Part shown: positions 29,469-42,110 of the stretch, piece by piece
Numbering within the stretch: the first letter of the stretch is position 1
How the letters are laid out: the number at the start of each line of letters is the position of its first letter
From: an uncultured delta proteobacterium
GTDB taxonomy: Bacteria; Myxococcota; UBA727; VGSZ01
Length of the DNA stretch: 64,000 nt
Assembly: GCA_963775425.1 (NCBI GenBank)
Contig: CAVZJB010000009.1
Span: 80,616 to 144,615 of the forward strand
Direction of reading: 5' to 3'
Made by a program: the position numbers and the translations under genes
The notes under the pieces: model-generated
The model's input: the letters and a program-made list of their open reading frames with translations, nothing else
What the model was told of the DNA's origin: nothing
Databases searched by the model: none

Positions 29469-30290
29469 TCAGCTGAGGAGCTTGATGATGTCGTCGACGT
29501 GGCCCAGCATGATCACCGAGTTCTTCAGCATGGTCTGGATGAACAGGTCGATGCAGAGGAAGAACACGATGCAGCCGCCGATGACCTTGGCGGGCATGGC
29601 CATGAAGTACGCGTTGATCTGCGGGGCCACGCGGTTGATGAGGCCGAAGGACGTCTCGAGCGTCAGCGTGACGATGCCGATGGGCATGGCGAGGAGCACC
29701 GCGATCTCGAGGATCTCGGCGGTGAGCCGCGCGTTGTACTCGACGAAGGCGGCGTAGCCGGCGTGGAAGTGCGGGAAGTCGTTGATGGGGACCGCGACGA
29801 AGCTCTCGAACAGCGACGCCAGGAACGGGTGGTGCAGATCCAGCGCCAGGAACAGGGCGAGCAGCAACTGGTACTGCAGCGTGCCGAACGCCGACGAGCG
29901 CTCCTCGATCTCGGGCACCTGCAACTGGATCTGGTTGGCGCCGCGCAGGATGTCGATGAGCTGGCCGGCGATCTCCACGGTGTAGAACACCTTGGACGCG
30001 ACGAAGCCGATGACGAGGCCGACGAAGGTCTCCTTCATCATCATGAGCGTGAACCCGATGGGCGTGATGGGCAGCCCGTGCTCCGGGCTGACGTTGGCGA
30101 GCACCGTGGGCCACAGCAGGATGGTGAGCGTGACGCCGACGCCCATCTTCACCTCGACGGGCGCGTTCTTGCCGCCGAGGAACGGCACGAGGACGACCAT
30201 GGCCATGATCCGCGCCATGATCAGCGCGAACACGACGATGGTCTTCGTCATGTCGAGCTGCTGCGCGAGTGCAGCCATGAAGTTCTGCAC
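29469..30290 (-). CDS. sctT: Type III secretion export apparatus protein SctT (FliR/YscT family)
   Basis: At 273 aa it is a polytopic membrane protein with the FliR/SctT pattern (…FLASLFESFVAVPINDF…MPIGIVTLTLETSFGLINRVAPQINAYFMAMP…). Confidence 0.8.
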   Translation of the reverse strand: MQNFMAALAQQLDMTKTIVVFALIMARIMAMVVLVPFLGGKNAPVEVKMGVGVTLTILLWPTVLANVSPEHGLPITPIGFTLMMMKETFVGLVIGFVASKVFYTVEIAGQLIDILRGANQIQLQVPEIEERSSAFGTLQYQLLLALFLALDLHHPFLASLFESFVAVPINDFPHFHAGYAAFVEYNARLTAEILEIAVLLAMPIGIVTLTLETSFGLINRVAPQINAYFMAMPAKVIGGCIVFFLCIDLFIQTMLKNSVIMLGHVDDIIKLLS

Positions 30291-30298
30291 GGCCGCTC

Positions 30299-30571
30299 CT
30301 AGTGGATCACGTCGGGGATGCTCCCGAGGCAGAGCGTCGCGAAGCGAAGCATCGTGGCCCCGAGCCAGCCGCCGGTGGCGGCGAGCACCGCGAAGACGGC
30401 GATCATCTTCGGGACGAAGGAGAGCGTCTGCTCCTGGATCTGCGTCGTCGCGGAGAACACCGCGACCAGCACGCCGATGAGCAGGCTCAACAAGATGGGG
30501 GGCATCGACACCACGATGGTGATGAGGATGGCCTCGTTCGTGATTTGAACGATGAAGTCCTGGACGGTCAT
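30299..30571 (-). CDS. sctS: Type III secretion export apparatus protein SctS (FliQ/YscS family)
   Basis: The 90-aa product MTVQDFIVQITNEAILITIVVSMPPILLSLLIGVLVAVFSATTQIQEQTLSFVPKMIAV is the typical FliQ hairpin. Confidence 0.8.
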   Translation of the reverse strand: MTVQDFIVQITNEAILITIVVSMPPILLSLLIGVLVAVFSATTQIQEQTLSFVPKMIAVFAVLAATGGWLGATMLRFATLCLGSIPDVIH

Positions 30572-31437
30572 TGGTACCCCAAGACGAGGCCGCGGGTGAT
30601 GAGGTACCACCCGTCTACGAGGACGAAGAGCAATATCTTGAACGGCAGCGAGATGGTTGTCGGCGACAGCATCTGCATGCCGAGCGCCATCAATATGTTC
30701 GACACCACCATGTCGATCACCAGGAACGGCACGAAGATGATGAAGCCTATCTGGAAGGCCTTGGTGAGCTCGCTGATGACGAACGCGGGCGTGATGATCA
30801 CGAGGTCGTCGGGCTGAAGCGACGCGCGGTCCTCCTCGGCGCGCAGCCGATAGGCGACGCGATAGAGCATCTGGCGGTTCTTCTCATTGCTGTTTTTGAG
30901 GAGGAACGCCTTGATGGGCTCCTTGGCCTGCTTGAGCGCGTCGACGATGATGTCGACGTTCTCCTTCTGCAGGAGGTCGCCGCCGCGTCTTATCTCGATG
31001 AGGCGGTCGACGCGGTTGTAGATCTGCAGACCCACGGGCTGCATCACGTACGCGGTGAGGATGATGGCCATGCCCGTGATGACGGTGGTGGGCGGCGCCT
31101 GCTGCGTGCCGATGGCCTGGCGGGTGATGGACAGGACCACCGCGATCTTGACGAAGCTCGTCACCATCATCCCGACGAAGGGGATGAGGGCGAGGCCCGC
31201 CATGGCCGTCATGAGGATGAGCGGGCGGTTGGAGATGGAGTCGTTGCCGAGGAGGTCGACGCCGCCGACGGTGGCGCCGTGGGCGATGCCGCGACCCTTG
31301 GCCAGGGCGACGCACGGCGCGAGCGACACGACGAAGAAGACGAACGTGGCCCAGCCCACCCCGCGGGCGAAGCGCAGGGTGCGCGGCTCGTCCTTGTGGT
31401 GTCCGAAGCAGGAGCGGAGGGCTTCGCGGAGCTTCAT
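30568..31437 (-). CDS. sctR: Type III secretion export apparatus protein SctR (FliP/YscR family)
   Basis: It has the conserved FliP core (PLILMTAMAGLALIPFVGMMVTSFVKIAVVLSITRQAIGTQQAPP…FVPFLVIDMVVSNILMALGMQMLSP). Confidence 0.85.
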   Translation of the reverse strand: MKLREALRSCFGHHKDEPRTLRFARGVGWATFVFFVVSLAPCVALAKGRGIAHGATVGGVDLLGNDSISNRPLILMTAMAGLALIPFVGMMVTSFVKIAVVLSITRQAIGTQQAPPTTVITGMAIILTAYVMQPVGLQIYNRVDRLIEIRRGGDLLQKENVDIIVDALKQAKEPIKAFLLKNSNEKNRQMLYRVAYRLRAEEDRASLQPDDLVIITPAFVISELTKAFQIGFIIFVPFLVIDMVVSNILMALGMQMLSPTTISLPFKILLFVLVDGWYLITRGLVLGYQ

Positions 31438-32153
31438 GCGGTGGCCTTCTCGTCGTCGTTCGTCTTCTTGGCGTCGCGGCGCCTGAGGGCGTCCATGAAG
31501 GACGGCGGCGGCGCCGCCGCGGCCTTGGTCTCCACGTCCTTCAGGAGCGTGACGCCGCCCTCGCCGGCGGCGAGCAGCATCTGCTTGCCGTCGACCTCGA
31601 CGAGGAAGAGCGAGCGCTTGGCGTCGAGGCCGACGCGCTCGACCACCTTGACCCGCCTGCCGAGGTTCTGGCGCTCGACGAGCTTGCCGAGCCCCTTGGA
31701 CAGCGTGAGGTACACGAGCCCGAGGACGATGCAGAGCATCAAGATGGTCTTCAAGAGCGGCCCGACGAGGTCGCCGAGCCCCGACTGCGGCGCCGGCAGC
31801 GGCTTGAGCGCGTCCGGATCCGGCGGGGGCGCCGGGGGCACCTGCGGCGCGGCGTGTGCCGCCGGGTTTGCCGCTGCGTCCCCGTCGTCCGCGCGCGCGG
31901 CGGCGACGTCCGCGCCGGTCGCGGGCGCCGCGTCGTCGTCGCCGGCGGGGTCGTCGCCGACGCCCGGCGGCGGCAGAACGAGCTTCACGGCGTCGTCGGC
32001 CGTGGCGTCGTCGTCGGCGGCGTGCGCGGCGGCGGTGCCGCCGAACGGCGCGCTGTCGCCGGCGTTGTCGGCGAGCGCGGGGCCGGCGAGCGCGAGCCCG
32101 ACGACGACGAGCATGGGCGACGGGAGGGAGCCACGCTGGAGCTTGCTGATCAC
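31434..32153 (-). CDS. FliO-like export-gate accessory protein with an N-terminal signal peptide and an Ala/Asp-rich spacer
   Basis: The TM and C-terminal region (LLKTILMLCIVLGLVYLTLSKGLGKLVERQ…RSLFLVEVDGKQMLLAAGEGGVTLL) follow the FliO pattern. Its stop overlaps the sctR start. Confidence 0.5.
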   Translation of the reverse strand: MISKLQRGSLPSPMLVVVGLALAGPALADNAGDSAPFGGTAAAHAADDDATADDAVKLVLPPPGVGDDPAGDDDAAPATGADVAAARADDGDAAANPAAHAAPQVPPAPPPDPDALKPLPAPQSGLGDLVGPLLKTILMLCIVLGLVYLTLSKGLGKLVERQNLGRRVKVVERVGLDAKRSLFLVEVDGKQMLLAAGEGGVTLLKDVETKAAAAPPPSFMDALRRRDAKKTNDDEKATA

Positions 32154-32263
32154 GGCCGCAGCTTAGCGCGCCGCGCTCCAGGCGTGGCGAGCGCCCCCGT
32201 CCGCGCGTGGGGCCGGGCCTACATCCGCGCCGGACCCCGGGCGGACGCCACGCGGGTGCCGGG

Positions 32264-33727
32264 TCATTTGACGAGGGAGAGGATCCGGACGCCCAGCTCG
32301 CCGTCGATCTCGACGAGCTCGCCCTTGCCGACGCGCTTGCCGTCGACGACGAGGTCCACGGGCTCGCCGGGGGCGCGCGACAGCTCGATGACCTGGCCCG
32401 CGCGCAGTTGGACGACGTCGGCGGCGGAGACCATCACGCGGCCGAGCTCGACGACCATCGCCACGGTGATGTCGTCGAGGAGGCCCGCGGCCTCGGGCGA
32501 GGGCTCGTCCTCGGGCTCCTCTTCCCCGTCGGAGTGCTCGGCCCCCGGCTCGTCGTCGACCGCGGTGCCACCCGGGAGCGGCGCGCCCCCGCCGGCGTCG
32601 TCGATGGGGGCGGCGACGCGGTCGGCGGCCTCCCGGCGCAGCCGGGACCCGAAGGCGTCGGCGTCGACGAGACCCGCAGCGGACAGCCGCTTGGCGTTTT
32701 CTTCCATCTCCCCGCCTTCTACCTCGCCGAAGCCCTCGTGGAACAGATGCGCCTTTGCGCGCGGCTCGCCCGCGGGCGAGATGGCCTCGATCTGGACCTC
32801 GTAGCGCCCGCTGTCGCCGACGACGAGCGCGCCGGAGATGACGCCGCGGTGCCCGTCGCCGAGCCGGCACTGCACGCGGCCGCTCAGCGTTTGCGGCTGG
32901 TCCTCGTCCTCGGGCGGCACGATCGTCACTTCGCTCTCCTCGACGAGGATGATGTCGTCGATCTCGAGGGACTCCACGTCCGCCATCTGCAGACCGATGC
33001 GGCCTACCTCGACCACGAGCGGCGCCGTCAACAGCCGCACCACGTCGATGCGCTCGTCGAGCCGGCGGAGCCAGCGCGACAAGGCCGGGCCCTCCGCGGG
33101 GACGTCGGGCGAAAACGCGTCGCGCACGAAGCTCTCCGGCAAGTAGACGCGGCAGAAGCCCACCTTGACGTCGAAGAACAGCCGGAAGCTCAGGCACAGC
33201 AGGGGCGCGTCGACCGGGAAGCGCTCCGCGAGCGACGCCATGGTCCCGTGGACCCCCTCGAGCTTCAACGCCACGTCCTTGTCGGCGGCCCCCTCCTGCA
33301 GGAGCTGCAGCACGCGCAACAGCACGAAGGAGAACACGCCGTCCTCGATCTCCGACAGCGGCCTTTGTCCGTCGGCGTCCTCGGCGTTCCCCCCGAGGAG
33401 CTTGTCGATGGCCTGCTGCGCCACGGTGAGATCCACCTCGAGGAGCGCCTTCTCGGTGCGCGGCGGCAGCCCGATGACGGCGGCGCACGTGGGCTCCGCG
33501 AGGACCTGCGCGAGCTCTCCGTCGCCGAGCGCGCGCACGCCCTCGAACCACAGCTCGACGTCCGCGTGGACGAGCGGCCCGAGCATGTCCTTGAGCCAAT
33601 CCTTGAAGTCGCTCTCGAACGCCGTCTGCGGTAGGTGACACAACAGCGCGTTTTGCACCTGCACCTGCCGGCGGCTGATGCGGGGGAGCGTTCCCTGCAG
33701 CTTGAACTTGCGGAGCTTCCTCGCCAT
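32264..33727 (-). CDS. sctQ: Type III secretion cytoplasmic-ring protein SctQ, with a SpoA (FliN/YscQ) C-terminal domain
   Basis: The C-terminal ITVAMVVELGRVMVSAADVVQLRAGQVIELSRAPGEPVDLVVDGKRVGKGELVEIDGELGVRIL is a SpoA domain. Confidence 0.7.
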   Translation of the reverse strand: MARKLRKFKLQGTLPRISRRQVQVQNALLCHLPQTAFESDFKDWLKDMLGPLVHADVELWFEGVRALGDGELAQVLAEPTCAAVIGLPPRTEKALLEVDLTVAQQAIDKLLGGNAEDADGQRPLSEIEDGVFSFVLLRVLQLLQEGAADKDVALKLEGVHGTMASLAERFPVDAPLLCLSFRLFFDVKVGFCRVYLPESFVRDAFSPDVPAEGPALSRWLRRLDERIDVVRLLTAPLVVEVGRIGLQMADVESLEIDDIILVEESEVTIVPPEDEDQPQTLSGRVQCRLGDGHRGVISGALVVGDSGRYEVQIEAISPAGEPRAKAHLFHEGFGEVEGGEMEENAKRLSAAGLVDADAFGSRLRREAADRVAAPIDDAGGGAPLPGGTAVDDEPGAEHSDGEEEPEDEPSPEAAGLLDDITVAMVVELGRVMVSAADVVQLRAGQVIELSRAPGEPVDLVVDGKRVGKGELVEIDGELGVRILSLVK

Positions 33728-34803
33728 CAGTCCTCGAAGACCTCGCGGATATCTTCCTTGATCTCGTCCACGGCTTCCTTTTTCTTGCCGGGGAAAAGCA
33801 GGCTGAGCCCGATCCCGGCCCCCAACAATCCACCCACGACGACGAGTGACAACGGGGTCGGCACGTGGGTCGGCGCCTCGGGCCACACCCAGGCGAGGAG
33901 CGGCAGGCACATCTTGGCCCCGATGAAGCCGAGCACCAAGCCGAGCGCCGGCTTGAGGAACCGGAGCCCCCACAGCGCGCCCGACAGCAGGAAGAACAGC
34001 GACCGCAGGCCCAGGATGGCGAAGATGTTCGAGGTGTAGACGATGAACGGGTCCAGGGAGATGCCGAACACGGCGGGGATGGAGTCGAGCGCGAAGACCA
34101 CGTCGCTGAGCTCGACCGACACGAGGACGAGCAGGAGCGGCGTGGCCTTCCTGACGCCCTCTTTGAGCGTGAAGAAGCGGTGGCCGTCGTAGCTGTCGGT
34201 GACGCGGACGAAGCGGCGGGCGAGCTTGACGACGCGGTTGTCCTTGACGTCGCCTTCGTCGTCGCCGCCGCGCTCGACGATGAGCTTGATGCCGCTGTAC
34301 AGGAGGAACGCGCCGAAGACGTAGATGAGCGCGTGCACCGTGGACAGAAGCGCGGTGCCGCCGATGATGAACACGCCGCGCAGGACGACGGCGCCGAAGA
34401 TGCCCCAGAACAGCACGCGGTGCTGGTAGGCGTCGGGGACCTTGAAGGCGTGAAACAGGAGCAAGAAGACGAAGAGGTTGTCGACGGACAGCGAGTACTC
34501 GATGACGTAGGCCGAGAAGAACTCGAGGCCGCTCTCACGGTCCGACAGCACGAGGACGGCGACGCCGAACCCGCAGCCGAGCGTCACCCACACGATGGTC
34601 CACGCGAGCGCCACGCGCTTCTTCATCGGCGCGTCGCTGCGGCTCCCGATCCACAGGTCCACCGCCAGCACCACGACGACGATGGCCGTGAACGCGATCC
34701 ACAGCGCCGGGGTGCCGATGGAGTGCACCCGGGGGAAGTACCCGCTGAGGGGACGGGTGCCAAGCAAGACCCGCGGCGCAGCGATGCGCGGGCGCGCGCC
34801 CAC
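33727..34803 (-). CDS. TerC family integral membrane protein. The start is uncertain; a GTG near 34724 is possible.
   Basis: It has the TerC signature YSLSVDNLFVF plus repeated TM topology. Its stop overlaps the sctQ start (TGATG). Confidence 0.75.
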   Translation of the reverse strand: MGARPRIAAPRVLLGTRPLSGYFPRVHSIGTPALWIAFTAIVVVVLAVDLWIGSRSDAPMKKRVALAWTIVWVTLGCGFGVAVLVLSDRESGLEFFSAYVIEYSLSVDNLFVFLLLFHAFKVPDAYQHRVLFWGIFGAVVLRGVFIIGGTALLSTVHALIYVFGAFLLYSGIKLIVERGGDDEGDVKDNRVVKLARRFVRVTDSYDGHRFFTLKEGVRKATPLLLVLVSVELSDVVFALDSIPAVFGISLDPFIVYTSNIFAILGLRSLFFLLSGALWGLRFLKPALGLVLGFIGAKMCLPLLAWVWPEAPTHVPTPLSLVVVGGLLGAGIGLSLLFPGKKKEAVDEIKEDIREVFED

Positions 34804-34809
34804 GCTTCG

Positions 34810-35715
34810 TCAGCGGGTCTCGAGGCGGGCCAGCGACAGGCCCTTCTTGTCGAGGCGGCGCATGAGGTCTCCCTTGGAAGCCTCGATGAGCCGCTTGCTG
34901 TTCTGATCGAGGTTCTCGAAGCGCAGCGAGACCTTGCCGTCCTCGGCGGACACGCGCATGCGCGCGCCCTTGAGCGGGCCGTCCTTCAGCTCGATCTGGA
35001 ATTCCTTGAGGCCCTTGTCGTTGACGGCGAGGTGCACGGCGCTGACGAGCTTGTCGAGGAGCTCGGCGGGGATCTGCTTGACCTCGTGCGCCGGCGCCGC
35101 CCCCTGCGCCGCCTGCAACTGAGCGGCCTTGACGGCGCCGAGCGCGCCGGCGCCCTCGCGGCCGCGCCCGTCGGACTCGCCCTTGCCGTCGGCGTCGATG
35201 GCGGCGTTGGGCAATGCGGCGTTGCGAGCGTCGAGCTGCACCGCCTCCGCGTCCATCTCCTTGGCCGTCTCCTTCTTGTCGAGGTCGACCTTGCGATCGT
35301 CGCGCTCGACGCGGTCGTGCTCGACGCCCTGCTGGCGCCGCACGAAGCGGCCCGTGTCCGCCGACTGCGTCGCCGTGGCGTTCTTGTTGAGCACGCCCTG
35401 GAAGCCCTTGGCCTGCTGCATCGCGCGCGTCTGCTTCTGGATGCCGCTCCTGGCGAGGCGCGCGGCCTGGGCCTCGCTGTGGGCCTCCTTGGCGACGTGC
35501 TCGCCCTCCTGCTCGGCGTGGTGCTCCTCGTGCTGCGCCTTGAGCGCCTTGTCCTTCGTCGTCTCGGCGGTGCGCTGCCCGGCGCGCACCAGCTTGCCGA
35601 ACGCCGCACGGTTCTTCTCGGTGGACTTGGCGTCGCGGGCGTTCTTGTCGAGCTTCTTCTGGAGCCGCTCAGCCTCCGCCCTTTTGTGGGCGTCTTCTTC
35701 GACACGCGTGGACAT
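34810..35715 (-). CDS. sctP: Hook/needle-length control protein, FliK/SctP-like with a Flg_hook C-terminal domain
   Basis: The N-terminus is a charged coiled-coil. The C-terminus (…LLDKLVSAVHLAVNDKGLKEFQIELKDGPLKGARMRVSAEDGKVSLRFENLDQNSKRLIEAS…) matches the FliK C-terminal domain. Confidence 0.6.
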   Translation of the reverse strand: MSTRVEEDAHKRAEAERLQKKLDKNARDAKSTEKNRAAFGKLVRAGQRTAETTKDKALKAQHEEHHAEQEGEHVAKEAHSEAQAARLARSGIQKQTRAMQQAKGFQGVLNKNATATQSADTGRFVRRQQGVEHDRVERDDRKVDLDKKETAKEMDAEAVQLDARNAALPNAAIDADGKGESDGRGREGAGALGAVKAAQLQAAQGAAPAHEVKQIPAELLDKLVSAVHLAVNDKGLKEFQIELKDGPLKGARMRVSAEDGKVSLRFENLDQNSKRLIEASKGDLMRRLDKKGLSLARLETR

Positions 35716-35802
35716 GAAAAACCCCGGTGAAAAGCATCGCGGAGTGTATCGGCGCCGCCGCCGACGGGGGTGCGACCCCGTCATGACGCGGCGCGCCGTC
35801 CG

Positions 35803-36054
35803 TCAGCGACGCGCGGCGGCGAGCTCCTCGCGGAGCTTTTCGATCTCCTCGCGGAGCTTCTCGTTTTCGCGCTGGACCTCGTCGGCCGTGGGCGGCGGCG
35901 GGTCCTCCTTGGCGGCGGCCCCGTCGCGCGGCCCCAGGCGCTTTTTCATGTGCGCGCCGGCGACCTTGGCGATCTCCACGCCGACGCCCGCCAAAAGCGC
36001 CTTCCCCAGCGTGCGCCCGAGCTCCGCGATGACCTTTCCCACGGAGGCGTTCAT
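35803..36054 (-). CDS. Small coiled-coil protein of 83 aa
   Basis: High GC3. Its start overlaps the sctO stop. The C-terminus reads ENEKLREEIEKLREELAAARR. Confidence 0.4.
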   Translation of the reverse strand: MNASVGKVIAELGRTLGKALLAGVGVEIAKVAGAHMKKRLGPRDGAAAKEDPPPPTADEVQRENEKLREEIEKLREELAAARR

Positions 36055-36563
36055 GCGTCACCGAGCTCCTCGAGGAGCTTCTGGAAGTACTGGGCCTGCG
36101 CGATGTCCTCGGCGGCCATCTCTTCCTTCAGCATGCGCTCGCGCTTCACCTGCTTGAGCCACTTTTCCTTGTGCTTCTCGAGGGCTTTGAAGTCCTGCGT
36201 ACATTTCACGACAACTTCCATGGCTTCGGCGGCGATGCGCTCGGCTTCCTGAACGCGCTCTTGCTGCCTGTCGATGTCCACCTGGTAGGCCTCTTCCTGC
36301 TGCTTGAGTCGCTCGATGTGCCGGTCGTTTTGCTGGATCTGGCTCACGGTGTACTCGCCCATGCGGGTGCGCTCGGCGTACTCGGCCTTCTTGTTCTGGC
36401 GCATCTGCACCATCTCTCTGAGCTTCTGGCGCATCTCGTCGAGCTTGCGCTCCTCCTCGACGACCTTCCTGCGCTTCTCCGCGTAGGCCTCCTCGGCCTC
36501 CTTCTTCTTCTTCTCCCGCATCTCGTAGAGGACCTGCAGGCGGTACGCCGGCGACTTGGCCAT
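36051..36563 (-). CDS. sctO: SctO/FliJ-like stalk protein, all coiled-coil, 170 aa
   Basis: Its size, all-helical Lys/Glu/Arg-rich composition and position (downstream of the ATPase, upstream of sctP) match SctO/FliJ. Confidence 0.5.
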   Translation of the reverse strand: MAKSPAYRLQVLYEMREKKKKEAEEAYAEKRRKVVEEERKLDEMRQKLREMVQMRQNKKAEYAERTRMGEYTVSQIQQNDRHIERLKQQEEAYQVDIDRQQERVQEAERIAAEAMEVVVKCTQDFKALEKHKEKWLKQVKRERMLKEEMAAEDIAQAQYFQKLLEELGDA

Positions 36564-36637
36564 ATGGGATGAGATTACCGTCTGCTCGCGGCGGCGTCAT
36601 TGCACAGGCCGCTTCCGGGCGTGGTACGTGCTGCTCT

Positions 36638-38417
36638 GTGTCGCTCCCGGGCACGGCGCTCTTCTTCGCCCTCCTCGCGGTCGTCGTCGCGGGCGTGGCA
36701 GGCGCCCTGCGGCGCCTGCAGGCCGGCCGGCCTTCCACCGCGGCCGCGGCGGCGCTGGCCGTCCTGGCGGTGGGCCCGGACCTGCTCGGGCGCCCCTTTC
36801 ACGACGTCGGCGCCGGCCTGTGTCTCACTTCAGTCCTGTGCGCGCCGGGCGTCCTCTTTTTGCGCCGCCCCGCCCCGGCGCGGACGGGCGACCCGCGCGC
36901 GCCGGGCCCTCCGCTCGACGCGCTCGCCGCCGCCCTCGCGCTCCTCCTGTTCGCGGGCATCGCCTGGGTGACGCTCACGACGTTCCTCTGGGACGAGCGC
37001 AGCACGCACTTCGGGCTCGCCTCCGTCGTCGCCAGGGGCGGGTTGCCGGTGTTTCACCCCGAGTTCCCCGGCGCGGCGTTTTCGTACCACGCGGGCTTCG
37101 ACGTCATCGCCGGCGCCGTCCGGCGCTTCACGCGGCTGCCCATCGAGCGCTGCATCGACGTCGTCGGCCTCGCCGCCGCGGCGTCGCTGCTGTGGACGCT
37201 CCTCGACATCGGCCGCGACCTCGGCGGACGCGCCGGCGCGCGCCTCGCCCCCGCGCTCGCGCTGCTCGCCTACGGCCCGCTCTCCCTGTGCACCGGCGTG
37301 GTCTACGGCCTCGATCCCGCGTGCAGCGCCCTGTTCCCCGCGTCGTGGCAGCACACGGCCTGGCTGCCGGCGCCGGTGATTCTCGAATTTCTTCCAACAC
37401 CCGCAGGCCCTCGGCATGGCGGTCGTCCTGCCCGCGCTCGTCCTCGGCAGCGACGACGACCAAAAGCGCTTCGGCGCCGGCGTCGCCCTGCTCGCGCTGG
37501 CGTCACAGGCGCACGTGGTGCTCTTCGGGCTCGCCGGCCTCGGCCTCGCCGCCGTCGTCGTCGCGCGCACCGTGCGCACGCGGGCCGTGGCCGCCGGCGC
37601 CGTCCGCGGCGCCGCGCTCCTGGGCGCGCTCGCGTTCGCGCTCCTCGCCGGCGGCTTCTTCCATACGCCGGAGGCGCCCGCGCGCTTCCTGTGGGTCGGG
37701 CACTTCCGCGCCGCGTTCCACGCCGGCGTCCTCGGGAGCATCGCGCTCAACCTGGTGCTGTTCGCGCCCGCCCTCGCCACGCTGCCGTTCGCGGTCTTTC
37801 GCGCGCGAGCCGGCGGGCTGCGCCTCGCGCTCGTCGTCGCCGCCGCCGCCGGGTTCATCGCCGGCAACGTCGTCAGCTACGAGCGGAGCTGGGACATCGT
37901 GAAGCTCTTCGGGGCCGCCGCCTTCTGCGCCAACCTGCTCCTCGCCGACGTGCTGGCGGCCGCCGTCGCGCGCGTGCGGCCCGCCGTCGTCGCCTGCGTC
38001 GCCGCCGCCTGCGCCGTCGCCGGCGGCGTGTGGCTCGTGCGCTTCGGCCCGCTCAACGGCGCCATCGCCCCGCGCTACACCGAGCGCGCGCCCGCGCCGC
38101 TCGCGCGCGACCTCGACGCGCGCTTCGGCGACGTCGTCGGCCTCGCGCCCGTCCTCACCGACGCGCCGCAGATCCAGGAGCTCGGCTTCGCCCTCGTCGG
38201 GTTCGACTGGCGCGACGCCAGCGTCGGCTTCCTCGTCGACCGCGACCGCCGCGACGCCCTCACCAAGCTGCGAGACCGCGCGCTCACGTCGCTGTCGCTC
38301 GCCGACGTGCGCGCCACGGGAGCGCGCTTCGTGCTCGTGCGCGCCGGGCGCGCCGTGGACCCCGCGCTCGAGCGCGTCGGCGACGTCGACGACCACGCGC
38401 TCTACCGCGTGCCCTGA
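36638..38417 (+). CDS. Polytopic integral membrane protein with a large C-terminal soluble domain, possibly GT-C-like, and an apparent +1 frameshift near 37375–37395
   Basis: GC3 support covers two adjacent frames (36638→~37385 and ~37380→38417). The switch lies in an unusually AT-rich stretch, gtgattctcgaatttcttccaacac. Confidence 0.45.
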
Positions 38418-38421
38418 TTCT

Positions 38422-39855
38422 TCAGTCCTGGGCGTCCGCGAACATCTCCACCAGCGCCTGCACCGTGTCCTCGAACGCGGAGGCCTCCGTGGTGCCCTGC
38501 TTGAGGAACGTCTCGACCTCTTCGATCTTGTCGATGGCGTAGTCGACCTGCGGATCGGTGCCGTACTGGTACGCGCCGAGGAGGATGAGGTCGCGGTTCT
38601 TCTCGTAGGTGGCCATCACCTGCCGCATCTTGGACGCGGCCTTTTTGTGCTCGTCGGCGGCGATGCCGGTCATCACGCGGGACAGCGACGGCAGCACGTC
38701 GATGGCGGGCCAGTGGTTTCGCGCGCCGAGCTCGCGGTTGAGGATGACGTGGCCGTCGAGGATGCCGCGCACCTCGTCGGCGATGGGCTCCTCCATGTCG
38801 CCGCCTTGCACGAGGATCGTGTACATCGCGGTGATGGAGCCGATGTGGTTGTTGCCGGTGCGCTCCATGAGCTTCGGGATGAGCGCGAACACGCTCGGCG
38901 GGTAGCCCTGGCGCGCAGGCGGCTCGCCGAGCGCGAGGCCGATCTCGCGCTGCGCGCGGGCGAAGCGGGTGGAGCTGTCCATCATGAACAGGACGTCCTT
39001 GCCCTCGTCGCGGAACCACTCCGCCACCGCCGTGGCGACGAAGCAACACTTGAGGCGCACGAGCGAGGGCTGGTCCGACGTGGCGCACACGACGACGGAG
39101 CGCTTGAGGCCCTCTTCGCCGAGGGAGTCGTGGATGAACTCGAGCACCTCGCGACCGCGCTCGCCGACCATGCAGACCACGACGATCTCGGCGGAGGTCT
39201 GCCGCGCGATCTGTCCCATCAACGTCGACTTGCCGACGCCGGAGCCCGCGAACAGGCCGACGCGCTGGCCGCGGCCGACGGTGAGCAGGCCGTCCCACGC
39301 GCGCACGCCGAAGGAGATGACGCGATCGACGGGTTGGCGCGTGTAGGGATCGGGGCACTCGCGCTCGACGGCCCAGTCCTCGAGGCCCTCGATCTCCTCG
39401 ATGGAGCCGAGGCCGTCGATGGGCTCGCCGGTGCCGGAGAGCGTTCGGCCGAGCAGGCCGTAGCCGCACTTGATCTGGAACGGCTTGCCGCTCGGGATGA
39501 CCTCGCTCTCGGGGCCGAGCCCGGCGTTCTTGGGATTGCCGAGCGGCATCAAGAAGACGGCGCCGTCCTTGAAGCCGACGACCTCGGTCTTGAGCGCGCC
39601 GACGTCTTCCTTGGGCGACGTCACGTAGCACATCTCGCCGATGCGCACGCCCGGCACCGCAGCCTTGATGATGAGGCCGGTGACCTCGGTGACGCGGCCG
39701 CGGACGCGGTACGGCTTGGCCTCGCGGATCTCCTCGATGGCCCGACGCAGCTCGATGACCTTGCCCTCGGGGACGCCGTCGACGTGGGGCGCGGGCTCGC
39801 CGACGAGGTTCTCCTCAAGGGCGTCGAAGTCCGGCTTCTTGCGCGTGGTGGTCAT
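38422..39855 (-). CDS. sctN: Type III secretion ATPase SctN (FliI/YscN family)
   Basis: It has Walker A (GLFAGSGVGKSTL), Walker B (VLFMMDSSTRFA) and the F1/T3SS ATPase fold. It is 477 aa. Confidence 0.9.
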   Translation of the reverse strand: MTTTRKKPDFDALEENLVGEPAPHVDGVPEGKVIELRRAIEEIREAKPYRVRGRVTEVTGLIIKAAVPGVRIGEMCYVTSPKEDVGALKTEVVGFKDGAVFLMPLGNPKNAGLGPESEVIPSGKPFQIKCGYGLLGRTLSGTGEPIDGLGSIEEIEGLEDWAVERECPDPYTRQPVDRVISFGVRAWDGLLTVGRGQRVGLFAGSGVGKSTLMGQIARQTSAEIVVVCMVGERGREVLEFIHDSLGEEGLKRSVVVCATSDQPSLVRLKCCFVATAVAEWFRDEGKDVLFMMDSSTRFARAQREIGLALGEPPARQGYPPSVFALIPKLMERTGNNHIGSITAMYTILVQGGDMEEPIADEVRGILDGHVILNRELGARNHWPAIDVLPSLSRVMTGIAADEHKKAASKMRQVMATYEKNRDLILLGAYQYGTDPQVDYAIDKIEEVETFLKQGTTEASAFEDTVQALVEMFADAQD

Positions 39856-42026
39856 TGGCCCTTGAGGATCGCCCTCACCTTGGAGGCGTCCTCCGCGTCG
39901 GGCTTGAGCTCGAGGTACTTCCGGTAGTGCTTGCGCGCGAGATCGTTCTTCTTGAGCTTGGCGTAGGCCACGCCGAGCGTGCGGTGCACGTTGGCGTTGT
40001 TGCCGTTGACGTAGGGCGCGAGCTCGCTCACGGCGGCGCCGGGATCGCCCGCGAAGATCTTCTGGGTGGCGCTGCTCAGCGCCTTGTTGATCTCGGCCTG
40101 CTTGTTGTGGTGCGTGACGCGGGGCTCGTCGGTCTTGCGCTTGTGCTTGGGCTCCGCTCGCACGGCGTGCCCGCCGCTGTCGCCCGCGGCGTCGTCGGCG
40201 GCGGCGAGGGCGGCGTCGTCGTCCGCGCCCGCGGCGGCGCCGTCGTCATGCGCGTCGCCCGGGGCGGCGTCGTCGTGCGCGGCGGCGTCGTCTGCGCCCG
40301 CGGCGGCGGCGGCGGCGGCGGGCGCGTCGTCCCCGGTGGGGCCGACGTCGGGCTTGGCGCCGCTGCCGTCCGGGACGGGCGCCGTGTCGGGCGTCGTCGG
40401 CGTCGGTGAGGCCGCGGCGGTGGGTGGGGGCGGCGTGGGCTTGTCGTCGCCGCCGCTCGTGGCGACGAGCACGGCGATCACCGCGAGCAGCGCGATGACG
40501 ACGACGACGCCGATGACGATGATGTTCGGGCGGCCGCTCGGCTGCGAGAAGCCCTCGAACGGCGCCGCCGACACCGCGTCCGCCTGCTTCTTGCGAACGG
40601 GGTTGGTGACCCCGGTGCCGGCGTCCTGCTCGAAGTCGTCGCCGGCGGTGTCGGCGATGCGGGCGCGCTCGATCTCCTCGGGGGAGACGGCGAAGCGCTC
40701 GCCGATGGCGACGAAGCGAAGGCGGACGCGGCCGAGCTCGACGACGTCGCCGGGCTTCAACACGGCCTGCTCGACCTCCTCGTTGTTGACGAGGACGCCG
40801 TTGGCGCTCTTGAGATCGAGGATGCGCACGCGATCGCCCTCGCGCACCACCTTGGCGTGGTTTCGCGAGACCGACTTGTGCTCGATGGTGATGTCGTTGT
40901 CCTCGGTGCGCCCGAGCACCGCCTCCGCCGCACGCAGCGAGAAGGTGCTGCCCGCGAAGATGGTGTTGAGCACCACCAGGCGCGGGTACACCACGTCCTC
41001 GGCGCCGGGCGCGGCGCGCATGGCCTCGGTCTGCTCCTCGAGGGCGGTGCGTGCGTCGTTGGGACGCGCCGGCGCCGCCGGCGTCCCCGGCGCGCGCCCG
41101 TTGTCCGGCGACGGCGTGGCCGGCCGCGCGTCGGGGGCGCGGTCCTGCGCCCGCGGCTCGGGCTTGGTCTCGAGCACCCCGACGTGGCCGCCGATCTCGG
41201 GCACCGCCGCCGTCGGCGATCCCTCCGCCTTGTGCGCCACCGCCTTGTGCGCCGCCGGCGGCGGCGCGGGCGGCATGGTGATGGGCGGCGGCGACGTCGC
41301 CTGGCGCACCGTGGGCTCGAGCTCGGCCTCGCGCTGTCGCGACGGCAGCGCCGCGGCGTCCACAGTGGGCGCCTCCATGGCTTCGAGCATCTCCATGGTG
41401 ACGCGCTCGGTGTCGCCGCCGTCGGGATCGAAGCCGCTCCGCGCGTTGCTGCCGTTTTCCGGCGCCGGCTGCGGCGCGGGCTGCGCCCCCGCGACCGCGG
41501 GCGACGGCACCGTGCGCTCGTCGCTGAGCGGGTGATCTTCCTGGGTGGCGAGCCCGGGCACCGACAGCGCGGGTCCGCCCTGCGGAGGCTCCCAACGCTG
41601 CGTGTCGCCGGCGAACTCGTCGTCGTCGGGGCCGTGGGGAGCGGTGTCGCGGTGCAGCGGCTGCGTGGCCTGGGCGCCCTCGGCCGCGCCGTTGTGCGGG
41701 TGTTGCGGCGCGGTCACGCCGAGGGTGTCCTGCGCGTGAAGCGCGAGGTGGTAGTCGCCGATCTGGATGGTGTCGCCCTCGTGGACGTGCACCCGGCCGT
41801 CGATGCGATCCCCGTTGAGCTTGATGCCGTTGAAGCTCTTCAGGTCCTCGATCAGGACGTGGCCGTTCTCCTTCGAGAGCTTGGCGTGGTTGCGGGAGAC
41901 GTTCCGCTCCGTGAGCCGGATGGTGTTCCCTTCTTTACGCCCGATGGTGATGACGTCGCGCGTGAACGGCACGACGATCTGCTTGCCCGCATCGTCTTCG
42001 ATGATCAGCTTCCAGGTCGAAGGCAT
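39852..42026 (-). CDS. Membrane protein with two FHA domains, one TM helix, a Pro/Ala/Asp-rich periplasmic region and a C-terminal TPR-like motif
   Basis: The two FHA cores are (ITIGRKEGNTIRLTERNVSRNHAKL…NGIKLNG) and (FSLRAAEAVLGRTEDNDITIEHKSVSRNHAKV…NGVLVNN). The TM is IIVIGVVVVIALLAVIAVLV. Its stop overlaps the sctN start (ATGA). Confidence 0.7.
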   Translation of the reverse strand: MPSTWKLIIEDDAGKQIVVPFTRDVITIGRKEGNTIRLTERNVSRNHAKLSKENGHVLIEDLKSFNGIKLNGDRIDGRVHVHEGDTIQIGDYHLALHAQDTLGVTAPQHPHNGAAEGAQATQPLHRDTAPHGPDDDEFAGDTQRWEPPQGGPALSVPGLATQEDHPLSDERTVPSPAVAGAQPAPQPAPENGSNARSGFDPDGGDTERVTMEMLEAMEAPTVDAAALPSRQREAELEPTVRQATSPPPITMPPAPPPAAHKAVAHKAEGSPTAAVPEIGGHVGVLETKPEPRAQDRAPDARPATPSPDNGRAPGTPAAPARPNDARTALEEQTEAMRAAPGAEDVVYPRLVVLNTIFAGSTFSLRAAEAVLGRTEDNDITIEHKSVSRNHAKVVREGDRVRILDLKSANGVLVNNEEVEQAVLKPGDVVELGRVRLRFVAIGERFAVSPEEIERARIADTAGDDFEQDAGTGVTNPVRKKQADAVSAAPFEGFSQPSGRPNIIVIGVVVVIALLAVIAVLVATSGGDDKPTPPPPTAAASPTPTTPDTAPVPDGSGAKPDVGPTGDDAPAAAAAAAGADDAAAHDDAAPGDAHDDGAAAGADDDAALAAADDAAGDSGGHAVRAEPKHKRKTDEPRVTHHNKQAEINKALSSATQKIFAGDPGAAVSELAPYVNGNNANVHRTLGVAYAKLKKNDLARKHYRKYLELKPDAEDASKVRAILKGQ

Positions 42027-42110
42027 CCGCGAGTGCGCACTCCTGGCCGGCATCATACGTCGACGAACAGGCCGGCCGCCAAGCCGTGACCGGCGCTGTG
42101 TTTGGAGACC

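What the first reader, a model, noticed from the sequence alone, without database searches (positions are those of the whole stretch)
31434..32153. FliO-like gene and FliK-type Flg_hook domain in a non-flagellar lineage
Seen in sequence: a gene between sctQ and sctR encodes a signal peptide, an Ala/Asp-rich spacer, a TM helix and a FliO-like tail, and overlaps the sctR start. The ruler-like protein (34810..35715) ends with a FliK C-terminal-type domain.

Established knowledge: FliO is regarded as flagellum-specific, and the taxon inferred from gene content (Myxococcales) is not flagellated.

Inference: the locus may descend from, or be an intermediate of, a flagellar export apparatus. This is relevant to the evolution of T3SS from flagella.
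Basis: partly seen in the sequence, partly recalled or inferred. Interest (0 to 1): 0.5.

Follow-up and report, generated by a model that had tools for sequence, protein, structure and literature searches.

The report
FliO gene in myxobacterial T3SS operon
A real FliO-family gene sits just before sctR in a needle-less, non-flagellar type III secretion operon of an uncultured myxobacterium, but a 2025 paper already reported FliO in such operons, so this is one more example and not a discovery.

Summary
The gene at 31434..32153 (minus strand) is real and is a FliO-family member. It scores 43.5 bits on Pfam FliO (gathering cut-off 22), and the match lies in the domain after the membrane helix, not in the helix or the low-complexity part. 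It has a signal-peptide-like N-terminus, a 97-residue Ala/Asp/Pro spacer, one TM helix and a four-strand beta sheet. Its stop overlaps the sctR start (ATGA).

It lies in a tightly coupled operon: FHA protein, sctN, sctO, an 83-aa gene, sctP, terC, sctQ, fliO, sctR, sctS, sctT. That order recurs in uncultured Myxococcota genomes.

The "FliK-type" claim for the ruler is weaker. Flg_hook scores 16.6 bits (cut-off 29.8), HpaP scores higher, and the best fold match is the injectisome ruler PscP, ahead of FliK. It is the generic T3S4 switch domain shared by both kinds of ruler.

Abby and Rocha (2012) described Myxococcales T3SS as surviving flagellum-to-injectisome intermediates. Andrianova et al. 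(2025) reported FliO homologs in Myxococcota non-flagellar T3SS.

The most likely role, inferred and not shown, is an assembly chaperone for SctR. Novelty is low. A conserved TerC gene inside the operon is the most unusual side observation.

The parts
31434..32153 (-). FliO-family gene. It encodes a signal-peptide-like N-terminus, an Ala/Asp/Pro-rich periplasmic spacer, one TM helix and a cytoplasmic four-strand beta sheet. An alternative start is ATG 32114.
   Evidence: Pfam PF04347 scores 43.5 bits against a cut-off of 22. TIGR03500 scores 44.4 against a cut-off of 55.25. The AF2 model is and the hydropathy analysis. More than 180 homolog clusters were found; every one of the 120 listed except P0222 carries PF04347.
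30568..31437 (-). sctR (FliP family), 289 aa. It has a conserved N-terminal extension of about 80 aa containing a signal-peptide-like segment at residues 27-46.
   Evidence: Pfam FliP scores 227 bits. NCBIfam yscR scores 226.3, above its cut-off of 208.6, while fliP scores 191.9, below its cut-off of 217.45. The start overlaps the fliO stop.
30299..30571 (-). sctS (FliQ family), 90 aa from ATG 30571. Its start overlaps the sctR stop by 4 nt.
   Evidence: Bac_export_3 scores 89 bits. NCBIfam SctS scores 80.5, above its cut-off of 76.5. The junction is shown.
29469..30290 (-). sctT (FliR family), 273 aa. It is the last T3SS gene of the operon.
   Evidence: Bac_export_1 scores 176.9 bits. fliR scores 144.2 and SctT 133.8, both below their cut-offs.
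32264..33727 (-). sctQ, 487 aa, with a FliM-like N-terminal domain and a FliN/SpoA C-terminal domain.
   Evidence: Pfam FliM scores 40.7 (cut-off 27) and FliMN_C scores 66.6. TIGR02551 SctQ scores 101.4 against a cut-off of 100.8. The start is ATG 33727.
33727..34803 (-). TerC-family integral membrane protein gene embedded in the operon. Its stop overlaps the sctQ start by 1 nt.
   Evidence: Pfam TerC scores 167.3 bits. The gene is conserved at this position in L002-L006, L008, L010 and L013.
34810..35715 (-). sctP-like ruler, 301 aa. It has two long helices, a disordered linker and a C-terminal T3S4 domain (residues 217-300).
   Evidence: HpaP scores 22.3 and Flg_hook 16.6 bits, both below their cut-offs. 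Foldseek gives 5CUK PscP at E 4e-4 and 2RRL FliK-C at E 5e-3.
35803..36054 (-). Conserved 83-aa protein of unknown role between sctO and sctP.
   Evidence: No family match was found. Homologs sit at the same position in L002 and L005.
36051..36563 (-). sctO (YscO-like stalk protein), 170 aa.
   Evidence: Pfam YscO-like scores 68.4 bits. FliJ scores only 20.1 bits.
38422..39855 (-). sctN, the T3SS ATPase, 477 aa.
   Evidence: ATP-synt_ab scores 282 bits and T3SS_ATPase_C 92.8 bits. SctN scores 587.3 and FliI 575.5 bits.
39852..42056 (-). A 734-aa protein with two FHA domains, one TM segment and a C-terminal TPR. It is the first gene of the cluster and may be an SctD-like cytoplasmic-domain analogue.
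   Evidence: FHA scores 115.8 and Yop-YscD_cpl 102.9 bits. A homolog lies upstream of sctN in L002.

Best explanation
The ORF is a genuine FliO-family gene kept inside a non-flagellar, needle-less 'Myxo-type' type III secretion operon of an uncultured Myxococcota bacterium.

The protein is made with a Sec signal peptide. A variable acidic Ala/Asp/Pro spacer faces the periplasm, a single TM helix crosses the inner membrane, and a small beta-sheet domain faces the cytoplasm.

By analogy with flagellar FliO, it most likely acts early and transiently as a membrane chaperone or scaffold. In that role it would protect newly inserted SctR (FliP family) from degradation and promote formation of the SctR/SctT/SctS export-gate core, without staying in the finished machine. 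Translational coupling to sctR through the ATGA overlap would keep the two proteins co-expressed.

Shown here: family membership, architecture, operon position and conservation. Inferred: the chaperone function and the vertical retention of fliO from a flagellar ancestor.
For: - Family membership: Pfam FliO scores 43.5 bits (cut-off 22) on residues 161-222, outside the TM helix. TIGR03500 is the only NCBIfam hit, E 1.3e-11.
- Architecture: the AF2 model shows a TM helix at 126-162 followed by four beta strands at 168-207. This matches the conserved FliO core described in PMC12403147, section 8. Topology is supported by 6 K/R after the TM helix and an acidic spacer before it.
- Conservation: more than 180 homolog clusters were found, and all but one of the 120 listed carry PF04347. 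NCBI and JGI name some of them FliO. dN/dS of the core is 0.23-0.66.
- Link to the wider FliO family: a profile of this clade retrieves 2813 representatives at E<=1e-3. All ten of the distant ones that were sampled hit only TIGR03500, and two of them pass its equivalog cut-off.
- Context: the sctQ-fliO-sctR-sctS-sctT order is conserved in about ten Myxococcota MAG loci. Start/stop overlaps link fliO to sctR and sctR to sctS.
- Non-flagellar identity of the operon: YscO-like scores 68 bits against FliJ at 20. The SctQ, SctR and SctS NCBIfam equivalogs are passed while their flagellar counterparts are not. No flagellar rod, hook, MS-ring or motor family was found among about 60 ORFs scanned in the window.
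- Literature: FliO homologs in Myxococcota vT3SS (PMC12403147). Myxococcales NF-T3SS as basal intermediates (PMC3459982). FliO protects FliP and promotes FliP-FliR assembly (PMC5542435).
Against: - The protein does not reach the NCBIfam flagellar-FliO equivalog cut-off (44.4 against 55.25).
- No experiment on any T3SS-associated FliO was found. The chaperone role is extrapolated from Salmonella.
- sctU, sctV and sctJ are not in the window, so it is not shown that this genome can build a complete export gate.
- No phylogeny was built, so vertical retention and secondary acquisition of fliO were not distinguished.
- SctR is, pairwise, closer to solved FliP chains (160 bits) than to SpaP (124 bits). 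The flagellar versus non-flagellar assignment of the gate proteins is therefore not clear-cut.
Confidence: 0.8

Rival explanations
1. The resemblance to FliO is an artefact of a TM helix plus low-complexity composition. The ORF would then be an unrelated small membrane protein, or not a gene at all.
For: More than half of the protein is low-complexity Ala/Asp/Pro sequence that aligns poorly among homologs. The genome is 70% GC, so long spurious ORFs are common.
Against: The Pfam match lies on residues 161-222, after the TM helix, at E 3.4e-11 and twice the gathering score. GC3 is 0.96 in this frame. The core is conserved, with 22 invariant columns across 26 homologs, and dN/dS is below 1. The clade profile retrieves proteins that pass the FliO equivalog cut-off.
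Confidence: 0.02
2. The operon is the export gate of a true flagellum in a flagellated Myxococcota lineage. Under this reading, fliO is simply an ordinary flagellar gene.
For: The gene order fliI/J/K-(x)-fliM/N-fliO-fliP-fliQ-fliR equals flagellar order. SctQ passes Pfam FliM. SctT scores slightly higher on fliR than on SctT. SctR is closer to solved FliP chains than to SpaP. Whether the lineage is flagellated was not tested.
Against: SctO matches YscO-like (68 bits) and not FliJ (20 bits). The SctQ, SctR and SctS non-flagellar equivalogs are passed and the flagellar ones failed. No fliE/F/G/H, flg or mot genes, and no flhA/flhB, were found in 64 kb or in the 20-kb flanks of related loci, where the neighbours are housekeeping genes. 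The published Myxo systems have the same character (PMC3459982).
Confidence: 0.08
3. fliO was acquired secondarily by this T3SS lineage from a flagellar operon, or it has been repurposed for a job unrelated to SctR. One such job would be anchoring the machine to the cell wall through its periplasmic extension, as suggested for LysM- and AMIN-bearing FliOs.
For: PMC12403147 reports FliO in scattered Pseudomonadota vT3SS and in non-T3SS contexts, and speaks of repurposing. The periplasmic spacer here is long and lineage-specific.
Against: The gene holds the ancestral position directly upstream of sctR and is translationally coupled to it. The spacer contains no recognisable domain and is poorly conserved. 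The conserved part is the TM helix plus the cytoplasmic sheet, which is the canonical FliO core.
Confidence: 0.1

Closest known systems
FliO homologs of Myxococcota non-flagellar T3SS (e.g. M. xanthus WP_020477618.1 and WP_216608840.1; Andrianova et al. 2025, PMC12403147)
   Same: They belong to the same phylum-level group. They are Pfam FliO proteins encoded inside a secretin-less, needle-less T3SS gene cluster and share the TM-plus-beta-sheet core.
   Different: The window comes from an uncultured lineage whose closest relatives are MAGs. No cultured Myxococcus protein appeared among the best 120 hits. The periplasmic part is a domain-less acidic spacer, not the LysM or AMIN domains noted for some Myxococcota FliOs. 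The M. xanthus sequences could not be fetched for direct alignment.
Flagellar FliO of Salmonella/E. coli (assembly chaperone of FliP; Fabiani et al. 2017, PMC5542435)
   Same: It is a bitopic membrane protein with a cytoplasmic domain. Its gene lies directly upstream of fliP and belongs to the same Pfam family. The likely role, stabilising FliP/SctR and nucleating the gate core, is the same.
   Different: The window gene is in a non-flagellar operon. It has an added signal peptide and a periplasmic spacer of about 100 aa. It scores below the TIGR03500 equivalog cut-off. Its function is untested.
'Myxo' NF-T3SS short/long loci (Abby and Rocha 2012, PMC3459982), including M. xanthus T3SS* (MXAN_2434-2464) and T3SS(2) (MXAN_5643-5654)
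   Same: They lack a secretin, needle, tip and translocon genes. They retain the ATPase, the C-ring protein and gate genes, and their sequence character lies between flagellar and injectisome systems.
   Different: The published loci include sctU, sctV and sctJ. Here none of these is within 64 kb, and in some relatives sctQ-fliO-sctRST stands alone among housekeeping genes. A TerC gene is embedded in the operon.
T3S4 substrate-switch domain of T3SS rulers (PscP/YscP/HpaP and FliK C-terminus)
   Same: The ruler's C-terminal alpha/beta domain matches PscP (5CUK, TM-score 0.69 normalised to the target) and FliK-C (2RRL). Upstream it has a long helical or disordered 'ruler' part.
   Different: The sequence is below the curated cut-offs of both Pfam models. 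It is no closer to FliK than to the injectisome rulers.

Membership tests
FliO (Pfam PF04347) | HMM score at or above the Pfam gathering cut-off, on the domain itself | tested here: met
   The score is 43.5 bits against 22, E 3.4e-11, on residues 161-222.
FliO (Pfam PF04347) | Single TM helix followed by a small cytoplasmic antiparallel beta sheet (core described in PMC12403147) | tested here: met
   The AF2 model has a helix at 126-162 and strands at 168-177, 180-187, 190-197 and 200-207. Six K/R follow the TM helix.
FliO (Pfam PF04347) | Gene immediately upstream of fliP/sctR in the export-gate operon | tested here: met
   The fliO stop and sctR start overlap as ATGA. The order is conserved in related loci.
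Flagellar FliO (NCBIfam TIGR03500 equivalog) | Score at or above the equivalog cut-off of 55.25 | tested here: not met
   The score is 44.4 bits. More distant FliOs found by the clade profile score 44-57.5 bits.
Flagellar FliO (NCBIfam TIGR03500 equivalog) | Encoded among flagellar genes (fliM/N, fliP/Q/R, flhB/A, rod and hook genes) | tested here: not met
   The operon partners score as non-flagellar T3SS components. No flagellar-specific family was found in the window.
Flagellar FliO (NCBIfam TIGR03500 equivalog) | Stabilises FliP and promotes the FliP-FliR complex; not part of the finished basal body | not testable with these tools
   This is known for Salmonella (PMC5542435). It needs genetics and biochemistry in a myxobacterium.
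Flg_hook / FliK C-terminal domain (Pfam PF02120) | HMM score at or above the gathering cut-off of 29.8 | tested here: not met
   The score is 16.6-16.8 bits. Only 10 of 35 family members match at E<=0.1.
T3S4 ruler domain (HpaP PF09483 / PscP / FliK fold) | C-terminal alpha/beta fold shared by T3SS rulers, after a long extended N-terminal part | tested here: met
   Foldseek gives 5CUK at E 4e-4 (TMt 0.69) and 2RRL at E 5e-3. pLDDT of the domain is 81-91. HpaP scores 22.3 bits against a cut-off of 23.8, and 23 of 35 homologs match it.
Myxo-type NF-T3SS (Abby and Rocha 2012) | Lacks secretin, needle, tip and translocon, and lacks flagellar rod, hook and motor genes | tested here: inconclusive
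   None was found in the 64-kb window or in the flanks of related loci. The rest of the genome was not available.
Myxo-type NF-T3SS (Abby and Rocha 2012) | Locus holds the gate genes sctRSTUV plus sctN and sctJ | tested here: not met
   sctU, sctV and sctJ are absent from the window. Only sctN, O, P, Q, R, S, T and fliO are present. They may lie elsewhere in the genome.
Myxo-type NF-T3SS (Abby and Rocha 2012) | Basal phylogenetic position between flagellar and other NF-T3SS, in Myxococcales | not tested
   Only indirect evidence is available. Flagellar and non-flagellar model scores are mixed, and the relatives are Myxococcota MAGs. No tree was built.

The most novel reading that the evidence does not exclude
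This uncultured Myxococcota clade may carry a further-reduced, dispersed derivative of the Myxo T3SS. Its conserved unit is a five-gene sctQ-fliO-sctRST module, with no sctU, sctV or sctJ nearby. In many members this module is coupled to a TerC-family metal transporter at the position that fliL occupies in enterobacterial fliLMNOPQR operons. If TerC works with the gate as it does with SecYEG in Bacillus, this would be a T3SS-type export gate that metalates its cargo, or a gate used for a purpose other than classical type III secretion.
Probability: 0.1. Interest if true: 0.6.

Novelty: already known. Interest (0 to 1): 0.2.

Why it matters
FliO was long used as a marker separating flagella from injectisomes. 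Its presence in the deepest-branching, needle-less myxobacterial T3SS supports the view that these systems are living intermediates of the flagellum-to-injectisome transition. It also suggests that FliO was lost later, on the injectisome line.

That point has already been made in print (2012 and 2025). This window adds only another, uncultured lineage showing the same arrangement, together with a few further flagellum-like traits: a FliM-type SctQ N-domain and a signal peptide on SctR.

The experiment that still matters is whether a T3SS-associated FliO stabilises SctR. It is feasible in M. xanthus.

Tried and rejected
- TM or low-complexity artefact: rejected, because the Pfam match lies outside the TM helix and the spacer.
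- Solved FliO structure for comparison: the clade profile finds none in the PDB; the only hit was FixH at E 1.3.
- Foldseek against afdb50 to link the model to named FliOs, including M. xanthus: the library was not available.
- Profile of the ruler family against PDB sequences: no hit. The link to PscP and FliK came only from the fold search.
- Naming the organism: exact look-up gave NCBI/ENA records with no names. The genome-contig scan returned only MAG relatives, not the source genome and no cultured Myxococcus.
- Supplementary datasets of PMC12403147 searched for Myxococcota and M. xanthus accessions: nothing was held as text.
- Rfam scan of the window: no RNA family.
- Search of the window for sctU, sctV, sctJ, sctC, sctF and flagellar genes by Pfam on about 60 ORFs: none found.
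- Literature link between TerC and T3SS: none found.
- No phylogeny was attempted, because labelled flagellar and injectisome reference sequences could not be obtained.
Full report
**1. What is at the coordinates**

The window is about 70% GC, so long spurious ORFs are common. Third-position GC was used to pick real frames.

The minus-strand ORF 31434..32153 has GC3 of 0.96. It is 239 aa from GTG 32153. The public gene call (P0001, 226 aa) starts at ATG 32114.

- a hydrophobic segment at residues 10-28 ending ...PALA|D, which looks like a signal peptide;
- a 97-residue spacer with 30% Ala, 19% Asp, 18% Pro and net charge -15;
- a strongly hydrophobic segment at about 126-151;
- six Lys/Arg in the next 20 residues, which puts the C-terminus in the cytoplasm.

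The stop codon overlaps the ATG of the next gene as ATGA.

**2. Is it FliO?**

Pfam FliO (PF04347) scores 43.5 bits against a gathering cut-off of 22 (E 3.4e-11). The match covers residues 161-222, after the TM helix. The resemblance is therefore not a composition artefact.

NCBIfam TIGR03500 (flagellar FliO equivalog) is the only hit in that library. It scores 44.4 bits, below its strict cut-off of 55.25.

An AlphaFold model built on 26 homologs gives a short N-terminal helix, a disordered stretch at 23-125, a long helix at 126-162, four beta strands at 168-207 and a short helix. A single TM helix followed by a small cytoplasmic beta sheet is exactly the conserved FliO core described by Andrianova et al. 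2025 (PMC12403147, section 8).

Homolog evidence:
- Searches found 29 and then more than 180 clusters. All 29, and all but one of the 120 listed in the second search, carry PF04347, and some are already named FliO by NCBI or JGI.
- The core has 22 invariant columns among 26 homologs, while the spacer is variable in length and sequence.
- dN/dS of the core against five relatives is 0.23-0.66.
- A profile of the clade retrieves 2813 representatives at E<=1e-3 from 1.84 billion proteins.
- Ten of the more distant hits match only TIGR03500, and two pass its cut-off. The clade is therefore connected to the general FliO family.
- No FliO structure exists in the PDB for comparison.

**3. The surroundings**

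On the minus strand, the genes from upstream to downstream are listed below. Pfam results are, NCBIfam results.

| Coordinates | Gene | Main evidence |
|---|---|---|
| 39852..42056 | 734-aa protein with two FHA domains, one TM segment and TPR | FHA 115.8 bits |
| 38422..39855 | sctN | ATP-synt_ab 282 bits, T3SS_ATPase_C 92.8 bits |
| 36051..36563 | sctO | YscO-like 68 bits; FliJ only 20 bits |
| 35803..36054 | conserved 83-aa gene | no family match |
| 34810..35715 | ruler (sctP-like) | see section 4 |
| 33727..34803 | TerC-family membrane protein | TerC 167 bits |
| 32264..33727 | sctQ | FliM 40.7 and FliMN_C 66.6 bits; SctQ equivalog 101.4 vs 100.8 |
| 31434..32153 | fliO | see section 2 |
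| 30568..31437 | sctR | yscR 226.3 > 208.6; fliP 191.9 < 217.45 |
| 30299..30571 | sctS | SctS 80.5 > 76.5; fliQ 79 < 88.9 |
| 29469..30290 | sctT | Bac_export_1 176.9 bits |

Start/stop overlaps link five pairs: the FHA gene with sctN, sctO with the 83-aa gene, terC with sctQ, fliO with sctR, and sctR with sctS.

No sctU, sctV, sctJ, sctC, sctF or any flagellar rod, hook, MS-ring or motor family was found among about 60 ORFs scanned across the window.

The same gene order recurs in metagenome-assembled genomes labelled Myxococcales, Myxococcota or Deltaproteobacteria: S41 peptidase, FHA protein, sctN, sctO, small gene, ruler, terC, sctQ, fliO, sctR, sctS, sctT. In others, only sctQ-fliO-sctR-sctS-sctT is kept, among housekeeping genes (L009, L014, L015).

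**4. The ruler**

For the window protein, Flg_hook scores 16.6-16.8 bits (cut-off 29.8) and HpaP scores 22.3-22.4 bits (cut-off 23.8). Among 35 homologs, 23 match HpaP (best E 1.6e-6) and 10 match Flg_hook (best E 1.5e-4) at E<=0.1.

The AlphaFold model has two long helices, a disordered linker and a confident alpha/beta domain at residues 217-300.

The best fold matches are the substrate-switch domain of the Pseudomonas injectisome ruler PscP (5CUK, E 4e-4, TM-score 0.69 normalised to the target) and then the FliK C-terminal domain (2RRL, E 5e-3).

This is the T3S4 domain common to all type III rulers. It is not evidence for a specifically flagellar heritage.

**5. How it most likely works**

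In Salmonella, FliO protects FliP from degradation, promotes a stable FliP-FliR complex and is not part of the finished basal body (PMC5542435).

Three features of the window gene fit that picture: the conserved TM-plus-sheet core, its position immediately upstream of sctR, and its translational coupling to sctR. The best-supported reading is therefore that it is an assembly chaperone or scaffold for the SctR/SctT/SctS gate core. This step is inferred, not shown.

SctR here carries a conserved N-terminal extension of about 80 residues with a signal-peptide-like segment. From my own knowledge, flagellar FliP has such a signal peptide and injectisome SctR does not.

Other flagellum-like traits support vertical retention from a flagellar ancestor:
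- the sequence-detectable FliM domain of SctQ;
- the higher pairwise similarity of SctR to solved FliP chains (160 bits) than to SpaP (124 bits);
- the flagellar position of fliO between the fliM/N-type gene and fliP.

No tree was built to test this.

**6. Comparison with what is known**

- Abby and Rocha 2012 (PMC3459982) placed the Myxococcales NF-T3SS at the base of all non-flagellar systems. They described them as descendants of an intermediate that lacks secretin, needle and flagellar motility parts. FliO is not mentioned in that paper.
- Andrianova et al. 2025 (PMC12403147) state that FliO is frequently encoded in the vT3SS of Myxococcota, that both M. xanthus systems have one, and that this contradicts the older view of FliO as flagellum-specific.
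- One M. xanthus system, T3SS* (MXAN_2434-2464), is needed for prey lysis.

Both the observation and its evolutionary reading are therefore already in the literature, and automated annotation already calls close homologs FliO.

The window differs from the described cases in four ways:
- it comes from an uncultured lineage;
- sctU, sctV and sctJ are absent from the locus;
- its periplasmic spacer has no domain, unlike the LysM or AMIN domains reported for some Myxococcota FliOs;
- a TerC gene is embedded in the operon.

**7. Verdict**

- Novelty: already known. Interest: low (0.2).
- The most unusual unexplained feature is the conserved TerC gene inside the operon. TerC proteins metalate exported enzymes at SecYEG in Bacillus (PMC10550928), and no link to T3SS was found in the literature searched.

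Noticed in passing
window 33727-34803 (-): A TerC-family membrane protein gene (167 bits) sits inside the T3SS operon between the ruler gene and sctQ, and its stop overlaps the sctQ start. It is conserved at this position in L002-L006, L008, L010 and L013, but absent in L009, L014 and L015. TerC proteins metalate exoenzymes at SecYEG in Bacillus (PMC10550928). No paper linking TerC to T3SS was found.
   Followed up: partly
window 36569-38417 (+): A hydrophobic membrane-protein gene on the opposite strand interrupts the operon between sctN and sctO. The coding frame switches near 37340, which suggests a frameshift, pseudogene or assembly error. It has no Pfam match. The insertion is absent in L002, where sctN and sctO are 4 nt apart.
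   Followed up: partly
window 30568-31437 (-), residues 1-80 of SctR: SctR has a conserved N-terminal extension of about 80 aa with a signal-peptide-like segment (residues 27-46...APCVALA|KG). This resembles flagellar FliP more than injectisome SctR. Pairwise, SctR is closer to solved FliP chains than to SpaP.
   Followed up: partly
window 32264-33727 (-): The N-terminal domain of SctQ passes the Pfam FliM model (40.7 bits, cut-off 27), while the whole protein just passes the SctQ equivalog (101.4 against 100.8).
   Followed up: no
window 39852-42056 (-): The first gene of the cluster encodes a 734-aa protein with two FHA domains, a long disordered linker, one TM segment, an Ala/Asp-rich stretch and a C-terminal TPR. 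Its 4-nt overlap with sctN suggests a functional link. It could replace the SctD cytoplasmic domain (Yop-YscD_cpl 102.9 bits), or it could be a regulator.
   Followed up: no
window 29469-42056 and flanks: No sctU, sctV, sctJ, sctC or sctF lies anywhere in the 64-kb window. In relatives L014 and L015 the five genes sctQ-fliO-sctRST stand alone among housekeeping genes. The T3SS genes of this clade are therefore dispersed or reduced compared with the published M. xanthus loci.
   Followed up: partly
L005 6311-9818: In this related MAG, about 3.5 kb carrying two ORFs (388 aa on the + strand, 414 aa on the - strand) is inserted between sctQ and fliO. This breaks the otherwise tight sctQ-fliO junction.
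   Followed up: no
window 35803-36054 (-): A conserved 83-aa protein lies between sctO and the ruler. It has an amphipathic N-terminus and a C-terminal coiled-coil-like stretch, and it matches no family. Its start overlaps the sctO stop by 4 nt, and it is present at the same place in L002 and L005.
   Followed up: no
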